The position numbers and the translations under genes were made by a program. Positions 3,773 through 53,214 of a stretch of DNA of 64,000 nt are shown piece after piece. Below the pieces are notes generated by a model. The model made no database searches. It saw nothing but the letters and a program-made list of their open reading frames with translations, and was not told the DNA's origin. The DNA comes from Trypanosoma brucei. Lineage: Eukaryota. The DNA is taken from positions 2,592,001 through 2,656,000 of the forward strand of contig CH464491.1 in assembly GCA_000002445.1 (NCBI GenBank). Reading direction: 5' to 3'. How positions within the stretch are numbered: position 1 is the first letter of the stretch; every line of letters starts with the position of its first letter.

Positions 3773-4513
3773 TCAGAGAGTTGCTATTTTCAGACTCGTA
3801 TGCTTAAAGAAAGAAAGGCCCTCCAAAAACATATACAGTCGCGCATCGACTATCGTACGATTATTCATTCCTTCCTTTTGGGCAACCAGGCGCTTCAACA
3901 TCTTAGTGGGTGTAACATCGCTTTCGACATTTTTCCCTAACTTTAGTGGGAGCAAAATGACATCGATGTCCTCCCCGTCGTCTAGCTGAGGTTGTGGTTT
4001 ACAGTTGATTTTTGAATCTCCGTCCACACGTATTTTAACAAACTGGCAGCAAGAGTCCGATAAACCTGGTTCAAGACAAACAGCATCAGAGACATCAAAG
4101 ACATCTTCCACACAGGCGGAATATCCTGTTTCTTCTTTAAGCTCCCTCAAGGCCGCCACTTTCGCATCTTCCCCGGGGTCAATTAACCCTGCGGGGAACT
4201 CGATGACAACAGCATCGAGGGGTGGGCGATATTGCGCAACAAGGATCAGAAAACTTTCATTGCCGCGAGAAAGAAAAGCACAGATTTCAGTGCTATCAAC
4301 AGCCAGAGGTGCGGGCGTTCTCTGGTACCTATCCAACGGAACTTGTCTGGTGGTCCTCTGAACTAACTCCCATTTACTTGCAGAAATATCACCCACTTCT
4401 CGGGCTCCTTCTGGCGTTCCATTCTTCTCCGCAGTGTAAGTGATTTCACAAAGTCTCAGGTACTTCCGTTCCTGTAAAACATTCAACCCAACTCTGATAT
4501 AGCGGTCCCTCAT
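3773..4513 (-). CDS. NUDIX hydrolase (ADP-sugar pyrophosphatase-like)
   Basis: Exact match to the Nudix box G-x5-E-x7-R-E-U-x-E-E-x-G-U in GLIDPGEDAKVAALRELKEETGY. 246 aa. It is the first gene of the minus-strand array, bordering the strand-switch region. Confidence 0.8.
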   Translation of the reverse strand: MRDRYIRVGLNVLQERKYLRLCEITYTAEKNGTPEGAREVGDISASKWELVQRTTRQVPLDRYQRTPAPLAVDSTEICAFLSRGNESFLILVAQYRPPLDAVVIEFPAGLIDPGEDAKVAALRELKEETGYSACVEDVFDVSDAVCLEPGLSDSCCQFVKIRVDGDSKINCKPQPQLDDGEDIDVILLPLKLGKNVESDVTPTKMLKRLVAQKEGMNNRTIVDARLYMFLEGLSFFKHTSLKIATL

Positions 4514-4849
4514 GCGTTATATGGCTCTATGTAACACGCATCTAAAGAGGAGAATACAAGTAAATAAGTTATTGAAAAATAAGGTGGAAAAAAGTTAAAT
4601 CATGTAAACTCAGTATCAGAACGAAGATTCGGTACACAAAAAAGGACAAAAAATTGTCATGTAACCTATCGGTAGTAAAAGAACAAATTTTCGAGCACAG
4701 TATCTTTTGCAGAGCCCCCCCCCACCATCCTCCTTCCCCAGGGGTTTTATGCAGCGACTGTTCGTTAAGCTTCTTCAACATCCCACATACTCAATGCTAC
4801 ATATTTAATCAATAAAGAAAACTTCGTCCTGCAAAAAAAAAAAACGAAT

Positions 4850-6790
4850 TACCTTCCCCAATCCTTGGGTGCCCAGTCATCATGCAGTACAAATCCTGCC
4901 TTTTGTGTATAACACCCCAGAAAGACACAACAGGACGCTGGATTTAAAAAAAAAAGGAAGATGTTTGCCTTGGTACCATGAACTGCAGCTACAAACACGA
5001 AAGAAGAATAATCGGTGCAGCGGTCTCAACTTACGTAACAGCAACAAAGGGTGACACCCAGAAAAGAAAATATGGGGAAATGGATATCTTTTTCTTATCA
5101 AATATCCATAATAAGTACTTATATTACAAATTATATATCTGACTTGAAGCAACGTGTCCCAGCACTAAACCCCTCCCTGCAAAACGCAGGGCAATAATAA
5201 TTCACAATAAATGGGAGGGGTATGAAATATCCACGGGTTGATACTAACTCATAGGTAACGACGGTAACTATATTTATGTGAATCAAATGAAAACGATATA
5301 TTACAAGAGTATATATATTTAATTATTTATCAAGTGACATCTCTGGCGAGGAAAGTACTCCACAAGGCAAGACAACAGAACCCTATAAGCACGTAACTAC
5401 ACGTAGAAGCAACTAAATGAAAGTCCACTACCAGTAAAAAGCAGCTAAATTGGTCCCTGACGCGGCAGTATATACAACCGTCTGAACACCTACCCCACCA
5501 TCAAACACAAAGCACAGGCCAAAATGGATTATGCAAACACTACTACTTGGACGTACCACGTCAGCCTAATAAGACGGTAACTTACAAGAACAAACAAACG
5601 GCACCTCTATCATTAGGGAAGGGGGATTTAAAAAACGAAAGAAAAAACATTTCATCTACTTTTAAAAAGTTTCAACAAAAAAATATATAAAATGTCCAAC
5701 CATACGGAAAAGTTGAGATGTCCCAAGCCTTTCACATCCAGCATCGGCAACAAGTCTAACAGCAAGTAAAAAAAGTACCCGAACACCTCCCCTATTGGAC
5801 GACAACGACGACGGTGTACACCGCATGTCCGCAAGGGATGACAAAACAATTGAAAATAAAAAGCGAAACAAACTAAGCGAACCAGATGTCACCCCCGTAT
5901 AAACTTACGTGTATATGTATAGTGATAGTAAGAGTCGGGCGAGAACAACCACCTGCAAAACACTTGGAGCTTTTCTAAATTATTCTTATCCCTCTGCATC
6001 CCTAACTTTTAAAAATGTAGAATCGCGAATCTATAAGTGCAGGCCCAGTGGCATAATAATTAAGCCGTAAAACCGTTAGACCGGCCACTTGTAACGCGCA
6101 CGCGCCAGCTATACTAAAACCAAAGCAAACTCCTTTTGCAAGCTTCCGCCATCAGAGAGGTCCTGTAGAAGAGATAAACATCTAAAGGGGTGATAACCCA
6201 TGTCACCCTCAGGGTTCGTTAACGTGAGAACATCACGCAACGCCCCGCAGGTCAGTTGCGGTAGGGGTCTTGTAACGAACAAAAAACATTAAAAACACGA
6301 GGACAACCATCAGTGAAGAGTGCGAAATACGGAAGGGTACTGTTAACAAACATTAACCCCGCAGACGTGTCACGCATTGCCTTAATAGACACTTGATGCG
6401 CTACGCAAAGCTGCCGATGGGAGTTCACCGGAACTTTGAGACACCTGAACATAGCCGAGCTGCACAAAGGACAAAAAGGAATGCTCAAAAGCGTTTATTT
6501 GTGTTGACACAAAAGCCTATGCGGCAACCATCACGATAACTTTTTAAAAAAGATCAAGCAGTAATGCAACAGAAACGCCCAGTGGGCCCCACGCCCCACG
6601 CCCCACGCCCCACGCCCCACGCCGCTCCACGGGGAGGGGGTGACAGCCAACGCAACAGCACAAGCAGCACCGCTCAGCCACAGCCCCGCCGTGCGAACAC
6701 CGAAGCCGCGACAACACCCACCAGGGGGGCGGCTCGCTCGCACCGCCGGTATCTTGAGCCCGCACCGGCGTCGAGGTAATTGGGACCGTC
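4850..6790 (-). promoter_or_regulatory. CA/A-rich on + (GT-rich on the minus, transcribed strand) zone; putative initiation region for the minus-strand unit
   Basis: Plus strand is CA/A-rich (e.g. 5341-5640 and 6540-6780), i.e. G/T-rich on the minus strand, mirroring the GT-rich block at 10.8-11.5 kb. Trypanosome Pol II start regions at divergent strand-switch regions are GT-rich on the sense strand. Confidence 0.35.
6587..6642 (-). repeat. (CCCCACG)5 microsatellite plus adjacent G-runs; G-quadruplex motif on minus strand
   Basis: ccccacg x5 at 6587-6621, followed by ccgctccacggggagggggtg. The minus strand reads GGGGCGTGGGGCGTGGGGCGTGGGG, which fits G4N3G4N3G4N3G4. Confidence 0.85.
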
Positions 6791-9700
6791 GGTAGGTGAT
6801 GCCGCGCAAGCGACGCCACAGTTTTCTACTCGCCCGAGAGATATCGTTCAGGACAAGGGGCCATGGCTGCAACTTTTTCGCAGAGGCGGTGCCGGATTTC
6901 CCCACATTCACCTGGAACGCCGCATCCGAGGCCCCGCTACGATCGCGTGTTTTCAACGAGCGGAAGCGTGCCTCTCGAGATGAACGAAGAAATGAGGAAC
7001 ACTATCCTCCAACAGTAGTGTCTATTGTGTTCCCGAGATTACCAAACTCACGAAACCAAATCAGATTCGGACAAACGGCGCACCCTCCGCAAATCCCGCC
7101 GGGCTTCCTTTCCACAACACAAAGCAGGTGCCGGAAGGTGAATAAAAAAGAGGGAAAAGTGGTAATCGAACCTTCAGCATCAATGGTAAAGCCACTCCAC
7201 CATAACAACGGGACCGCGACGTAAATAAATAATCTAGCAATTAACCTTTTAATCAGCTAGAACCCCTTTGAATAGGAACCCGTGGAAAGCCATACGCCCG
7301 GGGCGGGCGCAAGGATTTCGGATACTTCTGCATAGCAAACAGCAAAGGGGCGTAGCTGTCGCCGAGGGAGGGCACCGACGCCTTCCCCCCACCCCGTGGC
7401 CCTCGGCCGCACTGGACGCAAGTCCACCCCCTGTCCGAAGCCGCAATCGCCCTTTTCGCACGACGACTCGCATCAACATTGCGTTTCAGTGTGCATTTAT
7501 CTTTCCCCTTCATTCCTCAGCACACCGCTTGAAGGGGATACCGCAGCTGGATTCATCGTGGGAGTTCCCCCGAGTCTTTCGAAAGGAGCTCCATTACCGG
7601 CGCCGAAATCTCATCCGTAGACATTTTCCCCACCCCGTGAATAGACCACTCTGTGCATGCGCCTTCACCATTCTTCACAGCTACACATGTGGTTGTACCC
7701 AACGATATCTCAGCATCAGCTGGTGCGAGCACTAGCTTCCCACCAGGCGGGTTTGCACACATGGCGAGAACGGTGAGGCCATTTGTGCACCGATGTGAAA
7801 ACCACTCTTTGTTGCTGAGTTAGCACCCAAAGCGCGTTAGACTCTACTACAGAAGTAGAGTTGCTGTGGCATTATTCACTCTGCACCCCACACGGTGTAC
7901 CACCAGCGTTTGGGACCATCGAAGCCTGGCAGAAAAAAAGTTAGCGGTCAACCTTACGTCGCCCGTCATGTTGCGTCAAAATCGTTAGCCAATGCTTATA
8001 CTGTGCTCGACTGGAGAGGGCGTTTATATCTCCACGCGATTCGCTGAGCAGCGTGAGTGTTTGGGGGCCACACAACCAAGTTCGCTGACGAATATTCTGC
8101 ATTGTCCATGACTATCTTCACCTTTCATTTGTCCATTTTTTTATACCTGATATACGGGGCGGGTTCCGGTGCATGGACTTACCGCGTGCAGTGCCAACCG
8201 TATTTTGCATGGTTTTCCCTTCTCTTCGGTCACCACTCTTTACTTAGCCACCCCCAATGCTTCAGGTGGCGGAGCTTTTCCCCTCATTTATCCTCCATCC
8301 CTTCCGCCCTTTCCTTTTCCCCTCGGCGTCAACCACCGGATAAGTTGGTTCGCTTTCTGTGACTACCCCCTTTTCGCCTGATCTACAACTGCTTTTATTT
8401 TCGGATGCTCAGAAGGTGTGTCTCTCTCATGTTATCCGGCATCGAACCAGGGGGATGTTGTTTCTGGCATGGAGTTCTCGAAATTTTGGTTTCGTCGCGC
8501 CATCACCTCACTGTTAGATTGGCTGTTTTCTTGCTTCGTAGACTTTTGCTTTCCAAGTTCCCTTTGCTTTCGATTGTTTTCGAGTAGATTTTGCACTTTC
8601 ACCCTTCTGCGGTTACTTGCGTCACTGCTGGTGGGAAGTCTCCTTCCCCCTCCCTGCAACGGCGTTTTGCACAAAGCAGGCACAAGTCCGCAATATTTCT
8701 TTGCTGCTTTTGCTTCTGGCGGTGCTCGCCGCGCACCACCACTAGGGCGCTCAGCGGCCTTGGCGCATGCACAGCATTTACTAAGCTCTGAGCTCAAAAC
8801 TCTTCCACCCTTAGCTTCGCTGCTTTTTCCTTCCATTTTCTTATGGCCATTTCTCCAAGCACTCCCTGCATCTTGCATATACGATCTAGTTTTCCCTTTC
8901 GCACGACAACATTTCCTCGCCTCATTTTGCAGGTTTGCCACCTCCCACATCCAAAGACGTGGCAACAGTCCATTCACACCCTTCAGAATTGCCTTTTCTC
9001 TGCTGCACCTCCAATAGCAAAGGGTGTGGCCTCACTCATTTTATCCCGCCATCGGAGGGAACGCTTAGATATTTTCTTTCGCCTATGGAAGTATTTTTGT
9101 TGGTGAGCTGTCCTGTCAAGTTTATTCCTTGCACGTGGTGTAGGGGGAACACGGCGATAGACCCTTTCAGCATCTGTGCCGATGCTTACTTCGGATTCGA
9201 CTTAATGCCGATCACTTGTGAGACACAGTATCGAGATCCAGTTTGGCATATTGAATTCCTCGTAGAGGGTCGTTCTTGCCGCTGAGAACCACTTGAAACT
9301 CGGAAAGTTTCTCGGGTGTTCCCTGTACCGGCGGGTATGAAGTACGCCTCCAGGCAAAATTGCGCAATACACTCGCCCACATTGTCAGGAAGTGTGACTG
9401 GACCCAGTTCCGAACTCAGCGAGATTATGTACGCACCCACTGCTACTGCGCGTCTCCTCTAGTGGTACGTGTTCGGTGCCAATTTCGTGGCTGCCGCGGG
9501 TTATACCAAATACTTTCACGCAAACGTGTGTTTGTGGCATTTTTCTGGTGCTAGCCTAACCGATGCTCTTCCATACACTCCATTTTGTTGCGAGTCCTGT
9601 ACTACACCTGCGCCATTCTTCAGCAGTGTCGTCACTCGCGAACCTTTAAAGGACTGTGCCGCTCTAATGTTCTTGTGCCAAGGAATCATTGTACATTGTG

Positions 9701-10238
9701 CCTCTTTATCCCGCATATGTGTTTTCCGCCAAATGAAGGACCTACCATTTTTTTTCACGGAGGCTTGTTTTTTACTCAAGTCCTTCCACTCGGGAGAGGA
9801 CTCGAGTATTCCACCGTGATCCACGTAAAATGGGACCTGTGTTCTTTCCGGCATTCCCACTTGGTATCAACGGCGCTCTGAAGGTACTGAAAAAGGCACG
9901 CTTTCTCCTGAAGGGGAGGATGTAGATACTCCTAGCTGCCCCTGAGGCTGGAGGGTCTTGTTGACTTTCCTTTTCCAGAAACTGGCAACCACCCGACTTT
10001 TTTATTCACAGAAGATCAAGACACATACGGGTGCTTGACTTCCCCATCGACAGGGAGCGAGTTACCAAAACCAAAGAAAGATTTACACAAGAGCCGTTTT
10101 TTACACGTGGAACAGATTCGCATCAGCGGGGAGTATGGGGTACATTTGCACCTTTTTTTCTTTCGCGCGGGTAATGATCCGCGGCGATGCCTCACAGTAC
10201 GGTATAAACTCACTTGATGTGCTTGTACGGCGCGCGAA

Positions 10239-10278
10239 CCCCCCCCCCCCAAAAAAAAAATAAAATAAAATAAAATAT
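10239..10278. repeat. C12-A10-(TAAAA)3 homopolymer/microsatellite junction
   Basis: cccccccccccc aaaaaaaaaa taaaataaaataaaat read directly in the sequence. Confidence 0.9.
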
Positions 10279-10799
10279 TATTTTTAACGAGTTTTTATGT
10301 TGTTCCCCCCCTTGGGACTTGGCTGTGTTCTTGCGGACTTTGACCTGCGTAGCGTGACCCGCGCAATCATACTAAGAAAGATTCTTCTTTGAGGGGTTCT
10401 CCCTAGCACCGACCCAAGGTAGTGTAAATGGGCTCCTGCAGCTTCAGCTTACCCGTAGGGTTCAAGCACGTCCTGGAAGCAGACTCTGCTTTGCTAGAGC
10501 TGAAGGCCGTCTGCCGCACCTCGAAAACAAAAAGAATACCAAGGGGAAGAAGATGGAAGGCGGCCCGCAATTACACAGATATCGAAAATTGAACGAAGTT
10601 AAGGCTACCCGATGGTGTCGCGCTGCTTGATCCTGTGGGTCGTGGTGCCCAAGTCGTTGCTACGGTGAATTCCCTCCTGCGTTGCCACCGTTCGGCGTGG
10701 CGTCGCTAGAAAGTTGTTTTCTGCGCGCAGCCGTAGCCGCTGAGATTAGAATGGAATATGGCATCTAGATTTCAGTTTATAGGGCAGTCGCCGTGTTTT

Positions 10800-29451: not shown

Positions 29452-31572
<2,121 letters not shown>

Positions 31573-40109: not shown

Positions 40110-43100
40110 ATGATGCGAAGGCTCAGTCCTGTGAACGGTTCGGTGGTTTCGCCCAATGTCGTAGCAGCGGTGTCATCGGTGCTTCAGCGGCAGCAACGCC
40201 ATCAGTCCGACGCCCCACTCAGGCGACTGTTGTATGAAAACGACAGTTTTCTCAGCGGCACCTCGGCTAGGTACATCGAATCGATGTACGAAAATTGGAA
40301 GGCAGATAAAAGTTCCGTGAACGAATCGTGGAATGAGGTATTCTCCTCAAGGGACCTGCAGTCATTTGAGAGACCACTCCTAACTTCACCCATCCGTGTT
40401 GTACCAGCTTCAGCTGAGGACAAGATGGAGGTGGCACAATCGCAGGATATCTGCGCGCGACTGACGTTAATGATCCAAGCGTTTGAGGACTACGGGCATC
40501 TTGCAGCTCGAACTGACCCTCTGGATGCTGAGGATGACTCTCTTCACCGTTCCCCGCAGGTTAAACCCAGAGAGAGGGTACACCTTGGTCTTGAAAGCTT
40601 TGGTTTTTCGAAGGAAGATCATGACCGTGTCGTACGTGTGGGTTTCATGGATCAATTGGGAGGCGCGATGAGCTCGAGCAGCAGGGCCATGACTATCAAG
40701 GAGCTGCACGACCATTTGACGAAGTGTTTCTGTGGGCGCGTGGGATGCGAATTAGGACACGTTGATGATGCAAATGTCGTCTGTTTCGTCCGTGAAGTTG
40801 TGGAGGGTTATAACACTGAGCACAATCCACTGCGGCGCCCGTTGTCCAAGGAGGAGAAACTGTGGGTGTGGGACCTTGTTGCCTCCGCCGTGCACTTTGA
40901 AGATTTCTTCAAGCGTAAGTATACCACACAGAAGAGGTTCGGTTGCGATGGCGCAGAGTCACTTATTGTTGGTTTGCGTTCACTCATGGAGTCAGCCTCT
41001 GATCACGGTGTTGAGAAGGTTAATTTCGGTATGGCACATCGTGGTCGTTTGAATACACTGTATAACGTTATCGGTAAGTCATTCCCAGTGATATTAAAAG
41101 AGTTTGTAGGTATCACGGCCCCTGAACTGGAACCATTTAAGGTACAATCCGATGTGAAGTACCATCTTGGGGCCAAATCTACGGTGAAGATGCGCAATGG
41201 AAAGTTGATGTTTACAGAATTGCTCGCCAACCCATCACATCTGGAGGCAGTCAACCCGGTCTTGCAAGGGTACACCAGGGCAGCACAACTCAAGCACGGA
41301 GACGCTGGGCAGTCGAAGGTACTCCCCGTGGAGATACACGGCGATGCTGCTTTTGCTGGGCAAGGTGTCACATTCGAGACGATGTGCATCAGTGAGGTTC
41401 CCAAGTTTACGACAGGTGGTACTATTCACGTTGTGGTTAACAACCAGATTGGCTTCACTACGGACCCCCGGTGCTCCCGAAGCAGTCCGTACTGCTCTGA
41501 CCTGGGCCGTGCCTTTCAGTGTCCCATTTTCCATGTAAATGGTGATTGTCCTGAGGATGTCGCTCGTGTGTTTGCGTTCGCTGTGGACCTCCGTTCAAGG
41601 TTCAACAAGTCTGTTGTTATTGATCTGGTGTGCTATCGCCGGTATGGACACAACGAAAATGACGATCCCACTATCACGCAGCCCCTCTTATACAAGCGAG
41701 TTCACGCGACACCCGATGTGTTTGCCCGCTACTCAGAAAAGCTTGTTGAAGAGGGAGTCGTGACCAAAGAGCAACAGACGGCCAAGGCCAAGGAGCAGAA
41801 GGATCACTACGGAAAATATCAGAGTGAGGTCGGGAATATACGGTACAGCGATTACCTCAAGTCCGGCATACCTGAGCTGTGGAGAGGCATGAAGTACTCA
41901 GATGAACTCGGAGAAGTGACATTGGAGCCCACCGCTGTTGCGCGGGAAAGTCTCCAACCGGTGATTGATTCGCTTAAAAAGGTGCCGGAGGGGTTTGTGG
42001 TTAATTCCAAACTCAAGGCGGTGCTCGAGCAGCGAGTCCAGTCTCTGGAGAAGGGTGAAAAGATTGATTGGGGCGCTGCTGAAGCGCTTGCCTTTGGTTC
42101 ACTATTACTGGAGGGCACTCATGTACGGGTGATGGGTCAGGACGTGGAGCGCGGCACATTTTCGCACAGACACGCAGTTTTACATGACCAGAACAAAGTT
42201 GACACGTACACGCCGCTCGCCCATATAAGGAAGGACCAGGCACCGTTCATAATCACTAACAGCCCTCTCAATGAGTATGGGGTACTGGGTTATGCCAGCG
42301 GTTACGCCATTTACGACCCCAATGCGCTTGTTTTGTGGGAAGCACAATTCGGTGACTTTGCTAACGGAGCCGCCATTATTTTTGATCAATTCCTTTCCAG
42401 TGGAGAAACCAAATGGAATCAGCAGCAGGCGGTCGTCGTTTCTCTTCCCCATGGATTCGATGGGCGCGGAGCGGAACACAGCAGCGGCCGCATTGAGAGG
42501 TTCTTGCAAGCCGTCGCAGAAGACGTGGACACTCCGGCGTACTCCCCTGAGGAGCGCGCCCACCGTGTAAATATGGAGGTTGTGTTCCCCAGCACACCGG
42601 CGCAGTACTTCCACTTGTTGCGCCGGCACGTCCGTCGCAATTTCCGCAAGCCGCTTATGTTATTCTTTTCGAAACAGTTCTTGCGCACACCGAACGAGTC
42701 ATCCATGGAACAAATAACCAGTGGCGGTTTCCAACCTGTTATCGGTGACCCATCCGTTCCACCCGAGAAGGCGCGTCGCCTCGTGATGTGCACTGGGCAA
42801 ATATACCACATCCTCAATAGGTACCGTGAATCCAACAACTGTGGACGGGACGTGGCGCTTGTGCGGATCGAGGAGCTCTCACCATTCCCAGTTGCTGAGG
42901 TGCAGAAGTTGTTGGCGGATTACAGTGGTGTCGAGCTGATGTGGGCACAGGAAGAGCCACGCAATCAAGGCGCCTTTTATCACGTTGAATCGCGTGTGGA
43001 GTACTACACGGGAGGAGCCCGAGAGCTGCGATATGCTGGGCGTGCGATCAGTGCTGCCCCTTCTACGGCCTACAAGAGCACTCACGACGCCGAGGAGAGG

Positions 43101-43127
43101 TACATTTGCGAATGCGTATTTTCATAA
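40110..43127 (+). CDS. 2-oxoglutarate dehydrogenase E1 component (mitochondrial)
   Basis: 1005 aa. The N-terminus FLSGTSARYIESMYENWKADKSSVNESWNEVF is the canonical OGDH E1 signature. Transketolase-like thiamine diphosphate regions follow (GMAHRGRLNTL, HGDAAFAGQG, FGDFANGA). A mitochondrial presequence is present. Confidence 0.95.
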   Translation: MMRRLSPVNGSVVSPNVVAAVSSVLQRQQRHQSDAPLRRLLYENDSFLSGTSARYIESMYENWKADKSSVNESWNEVFSSRDLQSFERPLLTSPIRVVPASAEDKMEVAQSQDICARLTLMIQAFEDYGHLAARTDPLDAEDDSLHRSPQVKPRERVHLGLESFGFSKEDHDRVVRVGFMDQLGGAMSSSSRAMTIKELHDHLTKCFCGRVGCELGHVDDANVVCFVREVVEGYNTEHNPLRRPLSKEEKLWVWDLVASAVHFEDFFKRKYTTQKRFGCDGAESLIVGLRSLMESASDHGVEKVNFGMAHRGRLNTLYNVIGKSFPVILKEFVGITAPELEPFKVQSDVKYHLGAKSTVKMRNGKLMFTELLANPSHLEAVNPVLQGYTRAAQLKHGDAGQSKVLPVEIHGDAAFAGQGVTFETMCISEVPKFTTGGTIHVVVNNQIGFTTDPRCSRSSPYCSDLGRAFQCPIFHVNGDCPEDVARVFAFAVDLRSRFNKSVVIDLVCYRRYGHNENDDPTITQPLLYKRVHATPDVFARYSEKLVEEGVVTKEQQTAKAKEQKDHYGKYQSEVGNIRYSDYLKSGIPELWRGMKYSDELGEVTLEPTAVARESLQPVIDSLKKVPEGFVVNSKLKAVLEQRVQSLEKGEKIDWGAAEALAFGSLLLEGTHVRVMGQDVERGTFSHRHAVLHDQNKVDTYTPLAHIRKDQAPFIITNSPLNEYGVLGYASGYAIYDPNALVLWEAQFGDFANGAAIIFDQFLSSGETKWNQQQAVVVSLPHGFDGRGAEHSSGRIERFLQAVAEDVDTPAYSPEERAHRVNMEVVFPSTPAQYFHLLRRHVRRNFRKPLMLFFSKQFLRTPNESSMEQITSGGFQPVIGDPSVPPEKARRLVMCTGQIYHILNRYRESNNCGRDVALVRIEELSPFPVAEVQKLLADYSGVELMWAQEEPRNQGAFYHVESRVEYYTGGARELRYAGRAISAAPSTAYKSTHDAEERYICECVFS

Positions 43128-44919
43128 ACTCCGAACGGCTGATGCGAATGCGCCGTGGAAAAGAAAATGGGCAGATGACTATAGGCGGAGCAAGATGAAA
43201 GACTAAGTAAAGTGAATGTCGGTTGATGAGAGGGGAATGGTTGCGAGCACAGTATACAGAAAAGGAGGCAATAGGAAGAAAATGACAGCTTCGAGGTGGC
43301 AAATTACGAGGTTGAAGACACGTGGCGAGGCGAGGTGTATTAACATTTCGGCTGAGTGGGGGTTTCAGTTAAAGTGGCGCGTTACTGCGACGGGTTCCCT
43401 TGTGCTTGTTGTAGACGTCTAAGATAGATGAATTGATACAAGGAGAATTTCTATTCATAAAACTGTCGTGTGTGCACGCGAACGAATGGAAGCAACTGCG
43501 TAATCCAAGCACAAGCACAGATGCACCTAAAAACACGACATCATTAGCCGAGTGAAAAAGCTGCACAAACCCCTGTGGGTATGTAAAAGAGCGCTTGTAA
43601 ATGAAAAAAAAATGAGCGAGATAAAACCCATAGGTAAATAAGAGTATACAAAGGACATAATATCGTTTTTTCCCCTTTTGGAGCGCAGTAGCGTGACAAA
43701 TATAGCTGAGGAGAGTAGCTGATGCTCGTGCTGCATTATACCACATGCAGTACTTTCACACTCCTCTTCCTCTTCTTATTTTCATCCTCCTTTATTTTTC
43801 TTCCCGTCAATGTGTGAGGATGGCTAATTTTTTTCTTTTTTCGTTACGTAAAATTTTCTTTCTTTGTTCCGTGGGTTTTCCCCCCTTTTATGCTTTTATT
43901 TGTTGTTCACATGTTAGCGTTCGATCGGAGCGGCGATTGATAATGAGAGGGAGGGGGATGATGTGGGTCTACCAGTTTGGTAGCCGGTTGCCGTTGATTT
44001 CGTTTTTGTTTTTGTTTTTTTTATTTCTTACGTTTTGGTATGAACATATGCCGCTCCACCTCATTTCCTTTCCAATTGAGCACCTGGTGGGAAGCCGAAA
44101 AAATAGGGATGGTTTGAGTAAAAGAAAGGGAATGAGGCGGAGCGGCATGTGATCTTCATAGGTGAGTGAACGTGGGGAGTAACTCCCCTTTTTTTTTTCC
44201 TAAAAAAAGGCACCAAGTACAACAAAGCGAATATAACGCACTTCAACTATAATGAACGAACGCTTCGAGTTTCTTTTTGTTTTTCTCTCTTATTTGTAAA
44301 AGCGATGTGTGCATATACGTGGTTAAGGAATTGACCTAGTGAAGCAGTGTTGAAAGGGTTTAATCCCTAAGAAAAAGGGGTAATAGGTGATGGAGGGGAA
44401 AGTCACAAAAAGGAAATTAAAGCAAAAGAGCTGGAGGAGGGGGGGGGGTAAAGCAATGTTAGGTGTACCTGTGGGAGAAAATTATTGCGAAAGAAGTGAA
44501 TGCACGCAATGAGTTTGTTTTCCCCCTTTTCTATTCTTTATTACTTTTTTTCAAGAGTGTAACGTACGCCGTGGTTGGGGTTAAAATGTCGCCACACGCC
44601 ACTTCGGCGCTTGTGTGCTCTGCCACACTGTGAGTGTACTGATGTTGGGTGCTCGCCCCTGCAGAGCTTGTGTGACTACTCCCAAATATATTATGGATAA
44701 GTGATTATTTTTCATTTGCGTTTTTATTTTTCCATCCGTTTCTCCTCTTGGTAGTTTTTTTTTTTTTGCGCAAGCTGAAAGGTCACGCATTGATATGTGT
44801 GCCCAAGGATATCGAACCTAGGTGAATTAGGTGTGTTTGAAGTTGAATAGGCGTAGAAGGATATTGCACTTGTTGTGGTTCCGTCACCGTTTTTTTTTAT
44901 TTCTCCCTCCACGCCTTAC

Positions 44920-44940
44920 GGGGGTGGGGGGGGGTGGGGG
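44920..44940 (+). repeat. G-rich run gggggtgggggggggtggggg (G-quadruplex motif on sense strand) in a long intergenic/UTR region
   Basis: Read directly. A second G12 run lies at 44437-44448. Confidence 0.85.
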
Positions 44941-45685
44941 AAAGGTATCCGCTTAGTTGAATGCGGTGGCAGCCACAAGCACTCGGCTGTACTGCAGCCT
45001 CCGACTTTACACAAAAGTGAGTAGATGTGTTATACCCTCATTTTTTGTCTTTCTTTTTTTTTTTTAGCGTGTAACCAACTGGTTGATCATTTGTTTCTCT
45101 TTAGGCTTGCCCCCGATGACGGGGGAGGGGAGCATCAAAATATGTATCCGGCGAGTTGTTACCTAATCAAGAAAAGAAGAGGAGCAGCGAGACGCGTTGT
45201 CTGTGTGCACACGTGTGTAAATATGGTTGTTTGATGAAGGGATAAAACTCAATGCTCGCGAAGTGACTTTGCAAACCAGTTTATTTACTAGTACTATTGC
45301 CATGTCAGTAGCTGTTTCTGTGCTGTTTTGTCAAAAGTTGGGTGGAGGGAAGAGGAAGAGGGAAAGTGTGTGTTGCAGTGGCTACGTCCCCGCTTCTATT
45401 TAACTATCCCTTTTATTTTACTGTGGTTTCTGCCACTATTTTGCATACTTCAAAAAAAAAAATAAATAAATAATAAAAACAAGAAAAAAACTCATCGTCA
45501 CGCTGCCATTCTTATTACTCCATTTTGTAGGGTGCCTTGTTTAATAGTAGGTGGGGCCTTGAAGTGTTGGTGTAGTGTCGCTCGACTATTGAAACGTGTG
45601 TGGCTCCAGTCCTGAATGCTGACTTGCATACGGGACAGGAAATAGCAAGGGCCCCCCTCCAAAACGGCGACAACAGCAACGAAAT

Positions 45686-46609
45686 ATGTCACTACCAAGA
45701 AGAATGTGCATGTTTGCTACCTGTCAAAGCAACAGGAAGAGTTGCAGTATGCGCCAAAGCTCAGTGACTTCTGAGGGCTACCGGTATTCTTCTACATTTG
45801 CTGCGGGTCGGTTGTTTGATGCCGTGTACGTCATTAACCTTGACCGACGTCCAGACCGCTGGGAGTTTGCGACGCAGCAGTTGAGCCGCGCAGGTTTCCT
45901 TCATGAGGAATACGTTCGGTTTCCGGCAGTAGATGGCAGGAATGTTGATCTTCAGAAGGCACACGCATGCGGTTTGATTTCGCGGCTCGGGTTACTTCGT
46001 CTGCAGGAACCTGAGCATCGCCGTATTTGGGGGATGGACTTGAATCCCGGGGCTGTGGGATGCGCGTTAAGCCACGCATTGTTGTGGGCGCAGATCGCTG
46101 CGAGTCGTCATCGATCTGTTCTTGTTGTGGAAGACGATTCTTTGTTCCCGCAAGACTTTCATCACAAATACGAGGCTCGTGCAAAGCAAGTTCCAAGCGA
46201 CTGGGAGCTGCTATATGTTAGCGGTCTTGACACGGCGGGGCAGGCTCCGCAGTTGCGAGTGGCTGAGGGTGTGTGTCGAGTGCCACAAATGCATCGTACA
46301 ACAAATTGTTACGTGGTTTCGCACAGGGGTGCCCGCCTCTTGTTGGATGCTTGCTTCCCTGTAACTTACCAATTGGATACAATGATGACGCTGAGGACTG
46401 CGGGTGACGGCGCTGGTGGTGTACCTTACGTAACGGTGCCCAACTGTTATACACTGCAGCCTCCGCTGGTGGTGCAAGCGACCCGAATGGGTTCAGACAT
46501 TCAAAGTGCGAGCGGTGGCGTATGTGATAGGGATGAGGTGGAAGAGGAAAGGGCAAGGTGTAGGGCCGCAGGGTGGGAAGTTCAGGAGACTGGAACCCTT
46601 GTACCGTAG
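45686..46609 (+). CDS. Glycosyltransferase family 25-like protein
   Basis: DAVYVINLDRRPDRWEF...LSRAGF...RFPAVDG matches the N-terminal signature of GT25 (LPS-biosynthesis/procollagen galactosyltransferase-like) enzymes. 307 aa. Confidence 0.55.
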   Translation: MSLPRRMCMFATCQSNRKSCSMRQSSVTSEGYRYSSTFAAGRLFDAVYVINLDRRPDRWEFATQQLSRAGFLHEEYVRFPAVDGRNVDLQKAHACGLISRLGLLRLQEPEHRRIWGMDLNPGAVGCALSHALLWAQIAASRHRSVLVVEDDSLFPQDFHHKYEARAKQVPSDWELLYVSGLDTAGQAPQLRVAEGVCRVPQMHRTTNCYVVSHRGARLLLDACFPVTYQLDTMMTLRTAGDGAGGVPYVTVPNCYTLQPPLVVQATRMGSDIQSASGGVCDRDEVEEERARCRAAGWEVQETGTLVP

Positions 46610-51825: not shown

Positions 51826-52056
51826 AAGTACCCGGTACCACGACAGAGGGGGGTTAAGTAGGGGGTTTTCACTTTTTTCGGTTTACTTTATCTTATAACT
51901 TTTGCCTTGCGGTGGGGATTTGATGCGTGTGGTGCGCATCAGTCAACACTCCTGCGCAACCCCTTCTTATAACTACCATTTTTCTGTCTCCAGTTTACTT
52001 AGTCACCTATTCTCTCTTCTCTTTTTCTTTTTTTCCTTCTACGAAGGGGCCAAACC

Positions 52057-52272
52057 ATGGCGAAGTCGAAGAACCACACCAATCACAACCAGTCGCGGAA
52101 GAACCACCGCAATGGGATTAAACCCCCGCTGCCGTTGTACATGTACAACTCGAAGCGCGGTGGGTGGCTGCCGGCCCTCGTTAACACCCGACGTGTGAGG
52201 AAGAACAATCAGAAGGCTGCGCTGAAGGCGCGCCGTGAGCGACTCGCCGCCCATCAGGCCGCACAGAAATAA
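52057..52272 (+). CDS. RPL29: 60S ribosomal protein L29 (eL29), copy 1
   Basis: MAKSKNHTNHNQSRKNHRNGIKPP... is the conserved eL29 N-terminus. 71 aa, very basic. Confidence 0.9.
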   Translation: MAKSKNHTNHNQSRKNHRNGIKPPLPLYMYNSKRGGWLPALVNTRRVRKNNQKAALKARRERLAAHQAAQK

Positions 52273-52673
52273 GGAGTCTGTCTTATCGCTGCATGGTTAA
52301 GCGCGTTGTGACGTTCTTGATGGCCCCATTGTCTATTTTGCTGCTGTATTGCTGTGATTTTCTCTTTCATACGCCCCTTTCAGTTCTCTTGGGTTGTTTT
52401 TGCGTGCCGTCACAGTCGTATTTCTGTGGCCGGGCTGCATTAGCTACATTTAGTTGTAAACATGCATTCGTGCCTCATCTTGTTGCTAGTGTACCTGTTG
52501 TTGTTATTCCTCCCAACTTCCTCTCCTTTCTCACTTGTTTTTCTTTTTTTGCTCGCACGCTGTTTGTCACAATCTGGCATTTATCACGTGTGCGCCACCA
52601 AACAAAACGTCGGCACCTGCCTCCTTTTGTTTAACTGCGCCGCTTCTTTAGGAAGGTTATTTGATACTCGAAC

Positions 52674-52889
52674 ATGGCGAAGTCGAAGAACCACACCAAT
52701 CACAACCAGTCGCGGAAGAACCACCGCAATGGGATTAAACCCCCGCTGCCGTTGTACATGTACAACTCGAAGCGCGGTGGGTGGCTGCCGGCCCTCGTTA
52801 ACACCCGACGTGTGAGGAAGAACAATCAGAAGGCTGCGCTGAAGGCGCGCCGTGAGCGACTCGCCGCCCATCAGGCCGCACAGAAATAA
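52674..52889 (+). CDS. RPL29: 60S ribosomal protein L29 (eL29), copy 2 (identical)
   Basis: 100% identical CDS 617 bp downstream of copy 1. Confidence 0.9.
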   Translation: MAKSKNHTNHNQSRKNHRNGIKPPLPLYMYNSKRGGWLPALVNTRRVRKNNQKAALKARRERLAAHQAAQK

Positions 52890-53214
52890 GGAGTCTGTCT
52901 TATCGCTGCATGGTGATTGGGGAAAAGCAGTGTCGATACTTTCCGCTTTTATTTTTCACTTCCTTTTGACATTTTCTTTTCTTCTATTTCCCTGTTACAT
53001 GATCTCGTTCATGTTATGGGTGCTTTTCTTCCAGTAACGAGGGATGGGAGTCTATAACACTTTTCTCCTCTATTTTCTCCCCTCATGTTTTTTTGATATC
53101 CTCTACAAATCCCTCCGTGGTCTCCCCCTTGTCACTGCAGCTGAAGTTCCCACTAGGATTTCTTAGGCGCACGTGTAGACGAAATATATATATATATATA
53201 TTTCACTTAATTCA

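What the first reader, a model, noticed from the sequence alone, without database searches (positions are those of the whole stretch)
6550..7800. GC-rich island with a (CCCCACG)5 G-quadruplex microsatellite embedded in the strand-switch region
A ~1.2-kb stretch has markedly higher GC than its surroundings and opens with five perfect CCCCACG heptamers followed by ggggaggggg. The minus strand (the sense strand for the leftward unit) therefore carries GGGGCGTGGGGCGTGGGGCGTGGGG, a textbook G4 motif. This sits at the inner edge of the putative leftward initiation zone. G4 or R-loop structure here could act as a boundary or origin-like element, and the island spawns overlapping spurious ORFs in several frames.
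Basis: seen in the sequence. Interest (0 to 1): 0.55.

Follow-up and report, generated by a model that had tools for sequence, protein, structure and literature searches.

The report
Polymorphic G4 repeat in trypanosome promoter zone
A variable-length G-rich seven-base repeat opens the most GC-rich stretch of a Trypanosoma brucei region where two gene arrays start in opposite directions; it fits features already described for such start regions, so it is a clear but ordinary example.

Summary
(CCCCACG)x5 is perfect at 6587-6621 and GGGGAGGGGG follows at 6631-6640. The tract opens the most GC-rich part of the 64-kb window: 74.5% GC at 6576-6775 against a mean of 48.7%. On the minus strand it is one of only four canonical G4 motifs in the window (G4Hunter 2.56).

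The window is T. brucei TREU927 chromosome 11, 2,592,001-2,656,000. The finding lies in the 7.1-kb divergent strand-switch region between TbNH3 (Tb927.11.9810, minus strand) and a DUF1619 gene (plus strand). Kolev et al. 2010 list both flanking units as divergent Pol II units. Their first leftward trans-spliced transcript starts at 6181, 406 bp downstream of the tract.

The island is single-copy and non-coding, with no RNA-family, tRNA or retroelement signal. Its G-runs and G+T richness sit on the leftward sense strand, and a mirror island lies at 10800-11540 on the plus strand. Two 10-mers of the repeat appear in Wedel et al. 2017's list of coding-strand 10-mers specific to the 5' end of start regions.

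The tract has 5 copies here and 3 in three other T. brucei-group genomes.

Best reading: promoter-proximal part of a GT-rich dispersed Pol II start region, carrying a slippage-expanded G4-prone microsatellite. Boundary or origin roles are untested, and an R-loop sequence rule is not met.

The parts
6587..6621 (-). (CGTGGGG)5 heptamer microsatellite (CCCCACG on the plus strand). It is the core of a canonical G4 motif spanning 6578-6621. Genomic position: Tb927_11_01_v4 2,598,587-2,598,621.
   Evidence: copy number is 5 here and 3 in three other genomes
6631..6640 (+). GGGGAGGGGG immediately after the tract. It is part of CACGGGGAGGGG, a 1-mismatch inverted copy of the CCCCACCCCGTG motif.
6576..6975 (.). 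GC-rich core of the island: 67% GC over 400 bp, and 74.5% over 6576-6775, the maximum of the window.
6580..6735 (-). Sense-strand GT-rich tract of the leftward unit: G 46%, T 22%, G+T 68%.
7275..7474 (.). Second GC peak (66% GC). It contains CCCCACCCCGTG at 7387-7398.
7628..7639 (+). Second exact copy of CCCCACCCCGTG (CACGGGGTGGGG on the sense strand). This copy is not exact in the other three genomes.
4656..6181 (-). Published low-abundance trans-spliced, polyadenylated transcript Tb11.NT.113. It is the first processed RNA of the leftward unit. The AG acceptor is at 6183-6182.
   Evidence: Kolev 2010 novel-transcript table; AG verified
3773..4513 (-). TbNH3 / Tb927.11.9810 / Tb11.01.1570 NUDIX hydrolase, the first coding gene of the leftward unit.
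10800..11540 (+). Mirror-image GC-rich, GT-rich island on the sense strand of the rightward unit: G 35%, T 30%, GC peak 66% at 11183-11382. It contains GGGGCGCTGGGGCC at 11079-11092. The only R-loop-forming sequence predicted in the window is here, at 11080-11435.
10407..11474 (+). Published transcript Tb11.NT.114, the first processed RNA of the rightward unit. The AG acceptor is at 10405-10406.
11645..13396 (+). DUF1619-domain protein, the first coding gene of the rightward unit. I infer it is the Tb11.01.1590 that heads Kolev's rightward unit; this identifier was not checked.
10239..10250 (-). G12 run on the minus strand (C12 on the plus strand), followed on the plus strand by A10 and (TAAAA)3. 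Its length varies among strains. It matches the top coding-strand 10-mer of Wedel's list.

Best explanation
The interval is the promoter-proximal, non-coding 5' part of the leftward Pol II transcription start region. It lies in the divergent strand-switch region between Tb927.11.9810 (TbNH3) and the DUF1619 gene on T. brucei chromosome 11.

Its sense (minus) strand is loaded with G-runs and G+T-rich sequence. This is the composition shown to drive directional Pol II initiation and H2A.Z deposition in T. brucei. The (CGTGGGG)n tract is a replication-slippage expansion of a start-region-type G-rich motif (GGGGCGTGGGG). It lies at the downstream edge of the island, about 400 bp before the first spliced-leader acceptor.

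Proposed working:
1. The G-rich and GT-rich sense strand disfavours stable canonical nucleosomes and marks the 5' end of the H2A.Z domain.
2. Pol II initiates dispersedly in or just upstream of the island and runs leftward.
3. When the duplex opens, the displaced non-template strand can fold the tract into a G4. This may help keep the region open or pause Pol II.

Shown here or in cited papers: position, strand, composition, motif identity, polymorphism, non-coding status, and published transcript ends. Inferred: that initiation occurs in the island, and that the G4 forms and matters in vivo.
For: Position:
- Leftward genes lie before 4513 and rightward genes start at 11645.
- The window maps to Tb927_11_01_v4 2,592,001-2,656,000. 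Two published poly(A) sites fit the offset, and AG dinucleotides precede both published novel-transcript 5' ends.
- Kolev 2010 Table S14 lists Tb11.01.1570->1160 (-) and Tb11.01.1590->2840 (+) as divergent units. The paper reports 5'-triphosphate RNA enrichment at every divergent unit.
- The first leftward spliced-leader site is at 6181. The primary transcript must therefore start to its right, where the island lies.

Composition:
- The highest GC of the window is here, and the top three GC windows all lie in the strand-switch region.
- Runs of four or more G: 12.8 per kb on the minus strand against 5.6 per kb on the plus strand in the island. In the right-hand island the values are mirrored, 7.9 per kb plus and 2.6 per kb minus. 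Background in the rightward unit is 3.3 (plus) and 2.6 (minus) per kb.
- G+T is 68% on the minus strand at 6580-6735 and 66% on the plus strand at 10800-11540.

Literature match:
- GGGCGTGGGG and TGGGGCGTGG, both phases of the repeat, are in Wedel 2017 Dataset EV1. Each occurs 6 times on the coding strand in region 1 of start regions and 0 times elsewhere on that strand.
- EV1 10-mers hit only the minus strand between 1 and 7 kb: 37 against 0.
- GT-rich elements drive directional transcription and H2A.Z deposition.
- G4 ChIP-seq and G4-seq peaks are 2- to 5-fold enriched at T. brucei start sites.

Non-coding, single copy:
- No Pfam hit.
- The only protein homolog is a DAL972 'hypothetical protein, unlikely' at the same locus.
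- Codon usage is non-coding.
- No Rfam or tRNA match.
Against: - No chromatin, nascent-RNA or G4 mapping data for this locus could be read, so the exact start sites are not known.
- GC skew changes sign only at about 10,540, and a G12 run lies on the minus strand at 10239-10250. The leftward start region could therefore begin up to 3.6 kb further right. The island would then be transcribed leader rather than promoter.
- The tract varies from 5 to 3 copies, and only the window allele has four or more GGGG runs. A specific requirement for this G4 is therefore unlikely.
- Nothing alignable exists in T. vivax, T. cruzi or T. theileri.
- The six counts in Wedel's list may come partly from this very locus, in which case they are not independent evidence that the motif recurs. 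They would then instead place this locus in region 1 of an H2A.Z-defined start region.
Confidence: 0.6

Rival explanations
1. Neutral by-product. The GC-rich and G-skewed composition and the microsatellite result from mutation or repair bias at a permanently open, transcribed region, plus replication slippage. They have no promoter or structural function of their own.
For: - The two largest indels of the whole 7.1-kb region (13 and 10 nt) both fall in the tract. T. equiperdum OVI is 99.7% identical to the window across the region yet differs there.
- G4Hunter drops from 2.56 to 1.8 among strains.
- The second CCCCACCCCGTG copy is not conserved.
- No sequence conservation beyond T. brucei.
- Canonical G4 motifs also occur inside the rightward unit.
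Against: - The mirror-symmetric, strand-specific arrangement of two islands matches elements shown experimentally to drive directional initiation.
- The repeat's 10-mers are specific to the coding strand and to region 1 genome-wide.
Confidence: 0.22
2. The tract acts through G4 or R-loop structure as a boundary between the divergent units, or as a replication-origin or ORC-recruiting element.
For: - ORC1/CDC6 binds centrally in divergent strand-switch regions, and 19 of 42 early origins lie at such regions.
- G4s lie near some origins mapped by short-nascent-strand sequencing.
- R-loops map to start-site strand-switch regions.
- G-rich sequences able to form G4s lie near base-J entry sites in Leishmania.
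Against: - No R-loop-forming sequence is predicted at the tract.
- R-loops show no preference for origins in T. brucei, and GC skew does not predict them.
- In the origin model, G4s sit on the poly(dA)-rich strand. Here the G4 strand is T-rich, not A-rich.
- About 80% of the grouped ORC1/CDC6 sites do not coincide with early origins.
- The tract is length-variable.
Confidence: 0.1
3. The island is the decayed remnant of a gene or retroelement, of the kind found upstream of the orthologous NUDIX gene in T. vivax and T. cruzi.
For: - In T. vivax and T. cruzi the GC-rich block just upstream of the AT-rich NUDIX leader is a relic of a dispersed retroelement family carrying an RNase H-like motif; my guess is VIPER/DIRS-like. 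T. cruzi additionally has an L1Tc element there.
- The abrupt switch from GC-rich to AT-rich sequence 2-3 kb upstream of NUDIX occurs in all four species.
Against: - A profile of that family finds nothing in the six-frame translation of the T. brucei region; the best E-value is 2.3.
- L1Tc and VIPER-like proteins give only one weak hit (E = 0.04, 15 of 55 identities), which disappears with low-complexity masking.
- No Pfam hits, no paralogs, non-coding codon usage.
Confidence: 0.05

Closest known systems
GT-rich dispersed Pol II promoters / transcription start regions of T. brucei (Wedel et al. 2017, PMC5579346; start-site maps of Kolev et al. 2010, PMC2936537)
   Same: - Lies at the 5' end of a polycistronic unit in a divergent strand-switch region.
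- G-runs and G+T richness are confined to the coding strand, with a mirror element for the opposite unit.
- Contains 10-mers from the published coding-strand, region-1 list, including two that are phases of the heptamer itself.
   Different: - Here the G-rich motif is expanded into a perfect 5-copy heptamer array, and the island is unusually GC-rich (up to 74.5%).
- Most published 10-mers are G10, (GT)n or T-rich.
- Promoter activity and H2A.Z at this locus were not tested.
G-quadruplexes at T. brucei transcription start and termination sites (BG4 ChIP-seq, Monti et al. 2026, PMC13316426; re-annotated G4-seq of Marsico et al. 2019)
   Same: A high-scoring G4 motif (G4Hunter 2.56, above the 1.2-1.57 thresholds used in those studies) within a start region.
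   Different: - Whether this particular site is a G4-seq or ChIP peak could not be looked up.
- In those data most peaks lie in coding sequences, and start-site enrichment is only 2- to 5-fold.
G4-forming GC-rich minisatellites such as human CEB1 and CEB25 (from my own knowledge, not checked here)
   Same: A tandem array whose G-rich strand forms a G4 and whose copy number is unstable.
   Different: This array is far shorter (35 nt, 3-5 units of 7 nt). No evidence of helicase-dependent instability was obtained.
G-rich, G4-capable 'entry' sequences for base J insertion in Leishmania strand-switch regions (Genest et al. 2015, PMC4344527)
   Same: Runs of 3-4 G on one strand within a transcription-boundary region of a kinetoplastid.
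   Different: - Those sites are mainly at convergent (termination) regions in Leishmania, and J is inserted at T pairs 12 nucleotides apart.
- No J data are available for this locus.
Mammalian CpG-island promoters with non-template-strand G4s and R-loops (from my own knowledge; comparison also made in Briggs et al. 2018, PMC6294496)
   Same: A GC-rich island at a dispersed, constitutive promoter, with a G-rich non-template strand.
   Different: - CpG observed/expected is about 1 across the whole window, so the island is not a CpG island in the methylation sense.
- The R-loop elongation-zone criterion is not met at the tract.

Membership tests
T. brucei Pol II transcription start region / GT-rich dispersed promoter | Lies at the 5' end of a polycistronic unit, here within a divergent strand-switch region | tested here: met
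   Gene orientation. Kolev 2010 Table S14 lists both flanking units as 'Divergent'. Compositional switch at 7446-7964.
T. brucei Pol II transcription start region / GT-rich dispersed promoter | G- and T-rich on the coding strand, with strand asymmetry | tested here: met
   G+T is 68% on the minus strand at 6580-6735. Runs of four or more G: 12.8 per kb on minus against 5.6 on plus. The right-hand island is mirrored.
T. brucei Pol II transcription start region / GT-rich dispersed promoter | [quoted passage not shown] | tested here: met
   13 hits on the minus strand and 0 on the plus strand in 6001-7000. Eight are GGGCGTGGGG or TGGGGCGTGG from the heptamer. Caveat: some of the published counts may derive from this locus.
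T. brucei Pol II transcription start region / GT-rich dispersed promoter | Enrichment of H2A.Z, H2B.V, H4K10ac, RPB9 and 5'-triphosphate RNA | not testable with these tools
   No locus-level tracks were available. Kolev 2010 states enrichment at every divergent unit.
T. brucei Pol II transcription start region / GT-rich dispersed promoter | Drives orientation-dependent transcription in a reporter assay | not testable with these tools
   Requires an experiment.
Canonical intramolecular G-quadruplex motif | At least four runs of three or more G separated by loops of 1-7 nt | tested here: met
   Five GGGG runs with CGT loops. Regex hit at 6578-6618 on the minus strand.
Canonical intramolecular G-quadruplex motif | G4Hunter score above the thresholds in use (1.2-1.57) | tested here: met
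   2.56 in the window allele; 2.08, 2.08 and 1.8 in the other three genomes.
Canonical intramolecular G-quadruplex motif | Folds in vitro (G4-seq, CD) or in chromatin (BG4 ChIP) | not testable with these tools
   The supplements of PMC13316426 are not held. A Watson-Crick hairpin is not an unusually strong competitor, with z = +1.0 and +0.4.
Microsatellite | Perfect head-to-tail copies of a short unit, with copy-number polymorphism between strains | tested here: met
   5.4 copies at 100% identity. Five copies versus three in DAL972, GCA_003543875.1 and T. equiperdum OVI, with a further 10-nt deletion in OVI.
R-loop-forming sequence (QmRLFS-type rule; approximate re-implementation) | A G-cluster initiation zone followed within 50 nt by an elongation zone of at least 100 nt with at least 40% G | tested here: not met
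   The initiation zone is present, but no elongation zone follows it leftward. The only hit in 64 kb is on the plus strand at 11080-11435.
Replication origin (ORC1/CDC6 site, MFA-seq or SNS-seq origin) | Located at a boundary of a transcription unit | tested here: met
   Divergent strand-switch region. ORC1/CDC6 binds centrally in such regions in general.
Replication origin (ORC1/CDC6 site, MFA-seq or SNS-seq origin) | [quoted passage not shown] | tested here: inconclusive
   The plus strand is A-rich to the left and T-rich to the right of about 7450, as in the model. However, the G4 lies on the T-rich minus strand, opposite to the model. The origin centre is unknown.
Replication origin (ORC1/CDC6 site, MFA-seq or SNS-seq origin) | Measured origin activity or ORC binding at the locus | not testable with these tools
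   No coordinates for chromosome 11 near 2.6 Mb appear in the held texts.
Retroelement or gene relic | Detectable homology to reverse transcriptase, RNase H, endonuclease or any protein family | tested here: not met
Structured RNA gene (tRNA, snRNA, snoRNA and others) | Match to a covariance model, or a tRNA cloverleaf | tested here: not met
   ARAGORN found none. Rfam at gathering threshold found none. At E<=10 there were only chance-level hits. The A/B-box-like strings at 7162-7215 are at chance frequency and do not fold.

The most novel reading that the evidence does not exclude
The length-variable (CGTGGGG)n tract is a cis-acting tuner. Its copy number (3 versus 5) would set the G4-forming capacity of the non-template strand at the 5' edge of the leftward start region. 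That in turn would alter H2A.Z or base-J deposition, Pol II initiation or pausing, or ORC recruitment for the whole Tb927.11.9810 polycistron. The result would be strain- or allele-specific transcription of a unit usually thought to be unregulated.
Probability: 0.06. Interest if true: 0.6.

Novelty: new member of a known kind. Interest (0 to 1): 0.22.

Why it matters
If the reading is right, this locus is a well-delimited natural example of a T. brucei Pol II start region. Three things are all defined within about 1.5 kb:
- the sense-strand G-rich island;
- a G4-prone microsatellite with natural length alleles (3 and 5 copies);
- the first spliced-leader site.

That makes it a convenient test bed for asking whether G4s at trypanosome start sites do anything. 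It does not change current understanding. GT-rich and G-run promoters, G4 enrichment at start sites, and ORC and R-loops at strand-switch regions are all already described.

Tried and rejected
1. tRNA relic. Strings on the minus strand at 7162-7215 resemble tRNA A and B boxes (TGGTGGAGTGG ... GGTTCGATTAC). ARAGORN and Rfam find nothing. B-box-like matches occur at chance frequency, 53 observed against 52.6 expected. The stretch does not fold better than shuffles, z = +1.1. Rejected.

2. Hidden protein gene. No Pfam hits for nine ORFs of the region. The 141-aa sense-strand ORF hits only DAL972's 'hypothetical protein, unlikely' at the same locus. Codon usage is non-coding.

3. Retroelement relic. 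This was prompted by protein-level similarity between the T. vivax and T. cruzi upstream regions. That similarity proved to be a dispersed family with an RNase H-like motif. A profile of the family and the L1Tc and VIPER-like proteins find nothing credible in T. brucei.

4. Cross-species conservation. Neither blastn nor tblastx gives any hit between the T. brucei region and T. vivax, T. cruzi or T. theileri.

5. Hairpin or cruciform at the tract. DNA folding is no better than shuffles.

6. CpG-island character. CpG observed/expected is about 1 everywhere in the window.

7. Locus-level overlays. The G4 ChIP supplements are not held. The SNS-seq supplements carry no coordinates. Tiengwe 2012 names no origin near chromosome 11 at 2.6 Mb in the text I read. 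Cordon-Obras 2022 is not held, so its core-promoter motifs could not be compared.

8. More strains. Exact-protein look-ups returned only four T. brucei-group genomes.

9. Literature search for the repeat sequence itself: no paper found.

Full report
OBSERVATION. The sequence reads ...CAGTGGG(CCCCACG)5CCGCTCCACGGGGAGGGGGTGAC..., with the five perfect heptamers at 6587-6621 and GGGGAGGGGG at 6631-6640. Tandem Repeats Finder reports 6586-6623, period 7, 5.4 copies, 100% matches. Apart from the polyubiquitin array, this is the best-scoring repeat in the window. The double unit occurs nowhere else in 64 kb even with two mismatches; 0.32 matches are expected by chance.

GC content supports the 'island'. 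The 200-bp window 6576-6775 is 74.5% GC, the maximum of the whole window (mean 48.7%, sd 6%). The interval 6550-7800 is 57.2% GC, the 99.9th percentile. The island is really two peaks, 6576-6975 and 7275-7474, around a 45.5% trough at 7100-7299.

WHERE THIS IS. The NUDIX gene at 3773-4513 (minus strand) is 100% identical to T. b. brucei TREU927 XP_829045. This is TbNH3 = Tb927.11.9810. Published poly(A) sites and 3'UTR lengths for Tb11.01.1570 and Tb11.01.1690 fix the window as Tb927_11_01_v4 2,592,001-2,656,000. Both published novel-transcript 5' ends then fall exactly after AG dinucleotides.

Genes left of 4513 are on the minus strand, and genes from 11645 onward are on the plus strand. So 4514-11644 is a 7.1-kb divergent strand-switch region. 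Kolev et al. 2010 list the two flanking units (Tb11.01.1570->1160, minus; Tb11.01.1590->2840, plus) as 'Divergent' Pol II units. They report 5'-triphosphate RNA enrichment at every such unit.

ANATOMY. Cumulative A-T peaks at 7446, and cumulative (G+T)-(A+C) reaches its minimum at 7964. The finding's interval is therefore the first ~1.4 kb of the leftward compositional domain. Cumulative G-C reaches its minimum only at 10540.

Kolev's novel trans-spliced, polyadenylated transcripts map as follows:
- Tb11.NT.113 maps to window 6181->4656 on the minus strand.
- Tb11.NT.114 maps to 10407->11474 on the plus strand.

The leftward primary transcript must therefore start to the right of about 6300. 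The heptamer tract is 406 bp upstream of the first leftward spliced-leader site.

The island's sense (minus) strand is G-rich. Runs of four or more G number 12.8 per kb there, against 5.6 per kb on the plus strand; in the rightward unit the values are 3.3 (plus) and 2.6 (minus) per kb. G+T is 68% at 6580-6735. A mirror island lies at 10800-11540 on the plus strand: G+T 66%, GC peak 66%, G-run density 7.9 per kb plus against 2.6 minus. It contains a related GGGGCGCTGGGGCC. The three highest-GC 200-bp windows of the 64 kb are all in this strand-switch region. The motif CCCCACCCCGTG occurs twice exactly in the island (7387, 7628) and once inverted with one mismatch next to the tract; 0.29 matches are expected by chance.

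G4. On the minus strand the tract gives five GGGG runs with CGT loops. It is one of four canonical G3+N1-7 motifs in the window, with a G4Hunter extreme of 2.56. The other three (20910, 34104, 44920) lie inside the rightward unit. Watson-Crick folding of either strand is no better than shuffles. My approximate re-implementation of the QmRLFS rule finds no R-loop-forming sequence at the tract, because the sequence downstream of it (leftward) is not G-rich. The only hit in 64 kb is on the plus strand at 11080-11435.

POLYMORPHISM. Across the 7.1-kb region the window is 98.5% identical to T. b. gambiense DAL972, 98.7% to GCA_003543875.1, and 99.7% to T. equiperdum OVI. All three have 3 heptamers instead of 5, and OVI has lost a further 10 nt. 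These 13-nt and 10-nt events are the two largest indels in the whole region. Only the window allele has four or more GGGG runs. The others keep a weaker motif, with G4Hunter 2.08, 2.08 and 1.8.

WHAT IT IS NOT.
- Not an RNA gene. There is no tRNA and no Rfam match.
- Not a tRNA relic. A tRNA-like A/B-box resemblance at 7162-7215 is at chance level.
- Not coding. The overlapping ORFs have no Pfam hit. They have no homolog other than DAL972's 'hypothetical protein, unlikely' at the same place. Their codon usage is non-coding.
- Not conserved beyond T. brucei. The orthologous upstream regions of T. vivax, T. cruzi and T. theileri share no DNA or translated similarity with it.

All four species do show an AT-rich 2-3 kb leader preceded by an abrupt GC-rich block. 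In T. vivax and T. cruzi that block is a relic of a dispersed retroelement family with an RNase H-like motif, and T. cruzi also carries an L1Tc there. A profile of that family and the element proteins find nothing credible in T. brucei.

COMPARISON WITH WHAT IS KNOWN. Wedel et al. 2017 showed several relevant things:
- Pol II initiates at the 5' end of H2A.Z domains.
- 10-mers enriched on the coding strand there are G- and T-rich.
- Synthetic GT-rich sequences drive directional transcription and H2A.Z deposition.

Their Dataset EV1 contains GGGCGTGGGG and TGGGGCGTGG. Each occurs 6 times on the coding strand in region 1, 0 times in regions 2-5, and 0-1 times on the non-coding strand. Both are phases of this heptamer.

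In the window, EV1 10-mers hit only the minus strand between 1 and 7 kb (37 against 0). Thirteen fall in 6001-7000, and eight of those come from the tract. Either these counts come from this locus, which would place it in region 1 of an H2A.Z-defined start region, or the motif recurs at other start regions. Both readings favour membership.

Other relevant findings:
- G4 ChIP-seq and re-annotated G4-seq show 2- to 5-fold enrichment at T. brucei start and termination sites.
- R-loops map to start-site strand-switch regions but not preferentially to origins, and GC skew does not predict them.
- ORC1/CDC6 binds centrally in divergent strand-switch regions, but about 80% of the grouped binding sites do not coincide with early origins.
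- Origins mapped by short-nascent-strand sequencing have G4s on the poly(dA)-rich strand. Here the G4 strand is T-rich.

MECHANISM (best reading, confidence 0.6). The island is the promoter-proximal part of the leftward GT-rich dispersed start region. The heptamer array is a slippage expansion of a start-region-type G-rich motif. Its G4 potential on the non-template strand is real in sequence terms, but probably not individually required, given the 3-copy alleles.

Shown: position, strand, composition, motif match, polymorphism, non-coding status, and transcript ends. Inferred: that initiation occurs in the island, and that the G4 forms or matters in vivo.

The main uncertainty is where the start region begins. 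GC skew flips only at about 10.5 kb, and a minus-strand G12 lies at 10239-10250. The leftward start region could therefore begin further right, which would make the island a transcribed leader rather than a promoter.

VERDICT. The feature is a new, well-resolved instance of known kinds, namely a GT-rich start region and start-site-associated G4s. Interest is low to moderate.

Noticed in passing
window 4723-4738 (-) and 11003-11018 (+): A perfect 16-nt inverted repeat. GGGAAGGAGGATGGTG is present in sense orientation in both divergent units, inside the published transcripts Tb11.NT.113 and Tb11.NT.114. It is conserved in all four T. brucei-group genomes. By my own rough estimate, about 0.01 such pairs are expected in 7.2 kb before allowing for the G-rich composition. 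Function unknown.
   Followed up: partly
window 10239-10275: C12-A10-(TAAAA)3 on the plus strand, which reads as a T-run followed by G12 on the minus strand. Its length varies among the four genomes (C10-C13, variable A-run). It matches the most enriched coding-strand 10-mer of Wedel's list, but on the minus strand. It lies 130-170 bp upstream of the first rightward spliced-leader site, so it may mark the far edge of the leftward start region.
   Followed up: partly
window 43100-45700, especially 44920-44940 (+): The strongest G4 motif of the window (GGGGGTGGGGGGGGGTGGGGG, G4Hunter 3.12), together with a G10 run at about 44440 and 19 Wedel coding-strand 10-mers on the plus strand in 44-45 kb. 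All lie in a 2.5-kb gene-free gap that overlaps the published transcript Tb11.NT.116 (44754-45415). Kolev 2010 does not list an internal initiation site here.
   Followed up: no
L003 5823-7045 (T. vivax) and L004 6928-8200 (T. cruzi), upstream of the NUDIX ortholog: Both species carry, in the same orientation and just before the AT-rich NUDIX leader, a frame-shifted relic of a dispersed retroelement family with an RNase H-like TDAS..GWG motif (VIPER/DIRS-like is my guess). T. cruzi also has a near-intact L1Tc immediately upstream. Strand-switch regions seem to act as retroelement sinks. No counterpart is detectable in T. brucei.
   Followed up: partly
window 52056-52297 and 52673-52914: A perfect 242-nt direct repeat, 617 bp apart. 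It encodes two identical 71-aa ORFs (MAKSKNHTNHNQSRKNHRNGIKPP...). From my own knowledge these are ribosomal protein eL29. The first copy overlaps the abundant published transcript Tb11.NT.118.
   Followed up: partly
window 29515-31566: A polyubiquitin array: nine 228-bp units at 99% identity. A spurious 708-aa antisense ORF overlaps it.
   Followed up: no
window 10793-11098 (+): A 101-aa ORF inside the right-hand GT-rich island and Tb11.NT.114. Its codon-usage score (+0.087) falls in the range of real genes, and DAL972 has a called gene of 114 residues at about the same place. The score may simply reflect GT-rich composition. Not examined further.
   Followed up: no
window 8000-9100: The centre of the strand-switch region is strongly pyrimidine-rich on the plus strand (purine 34-41%; both AT and GC skew negative). 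By skew it therefore belongs clearly to neither unit. It carries long overlapping ORFs on both strands (199 aa and 181 aa) with non-coding codon usage.
   Followed up: partly
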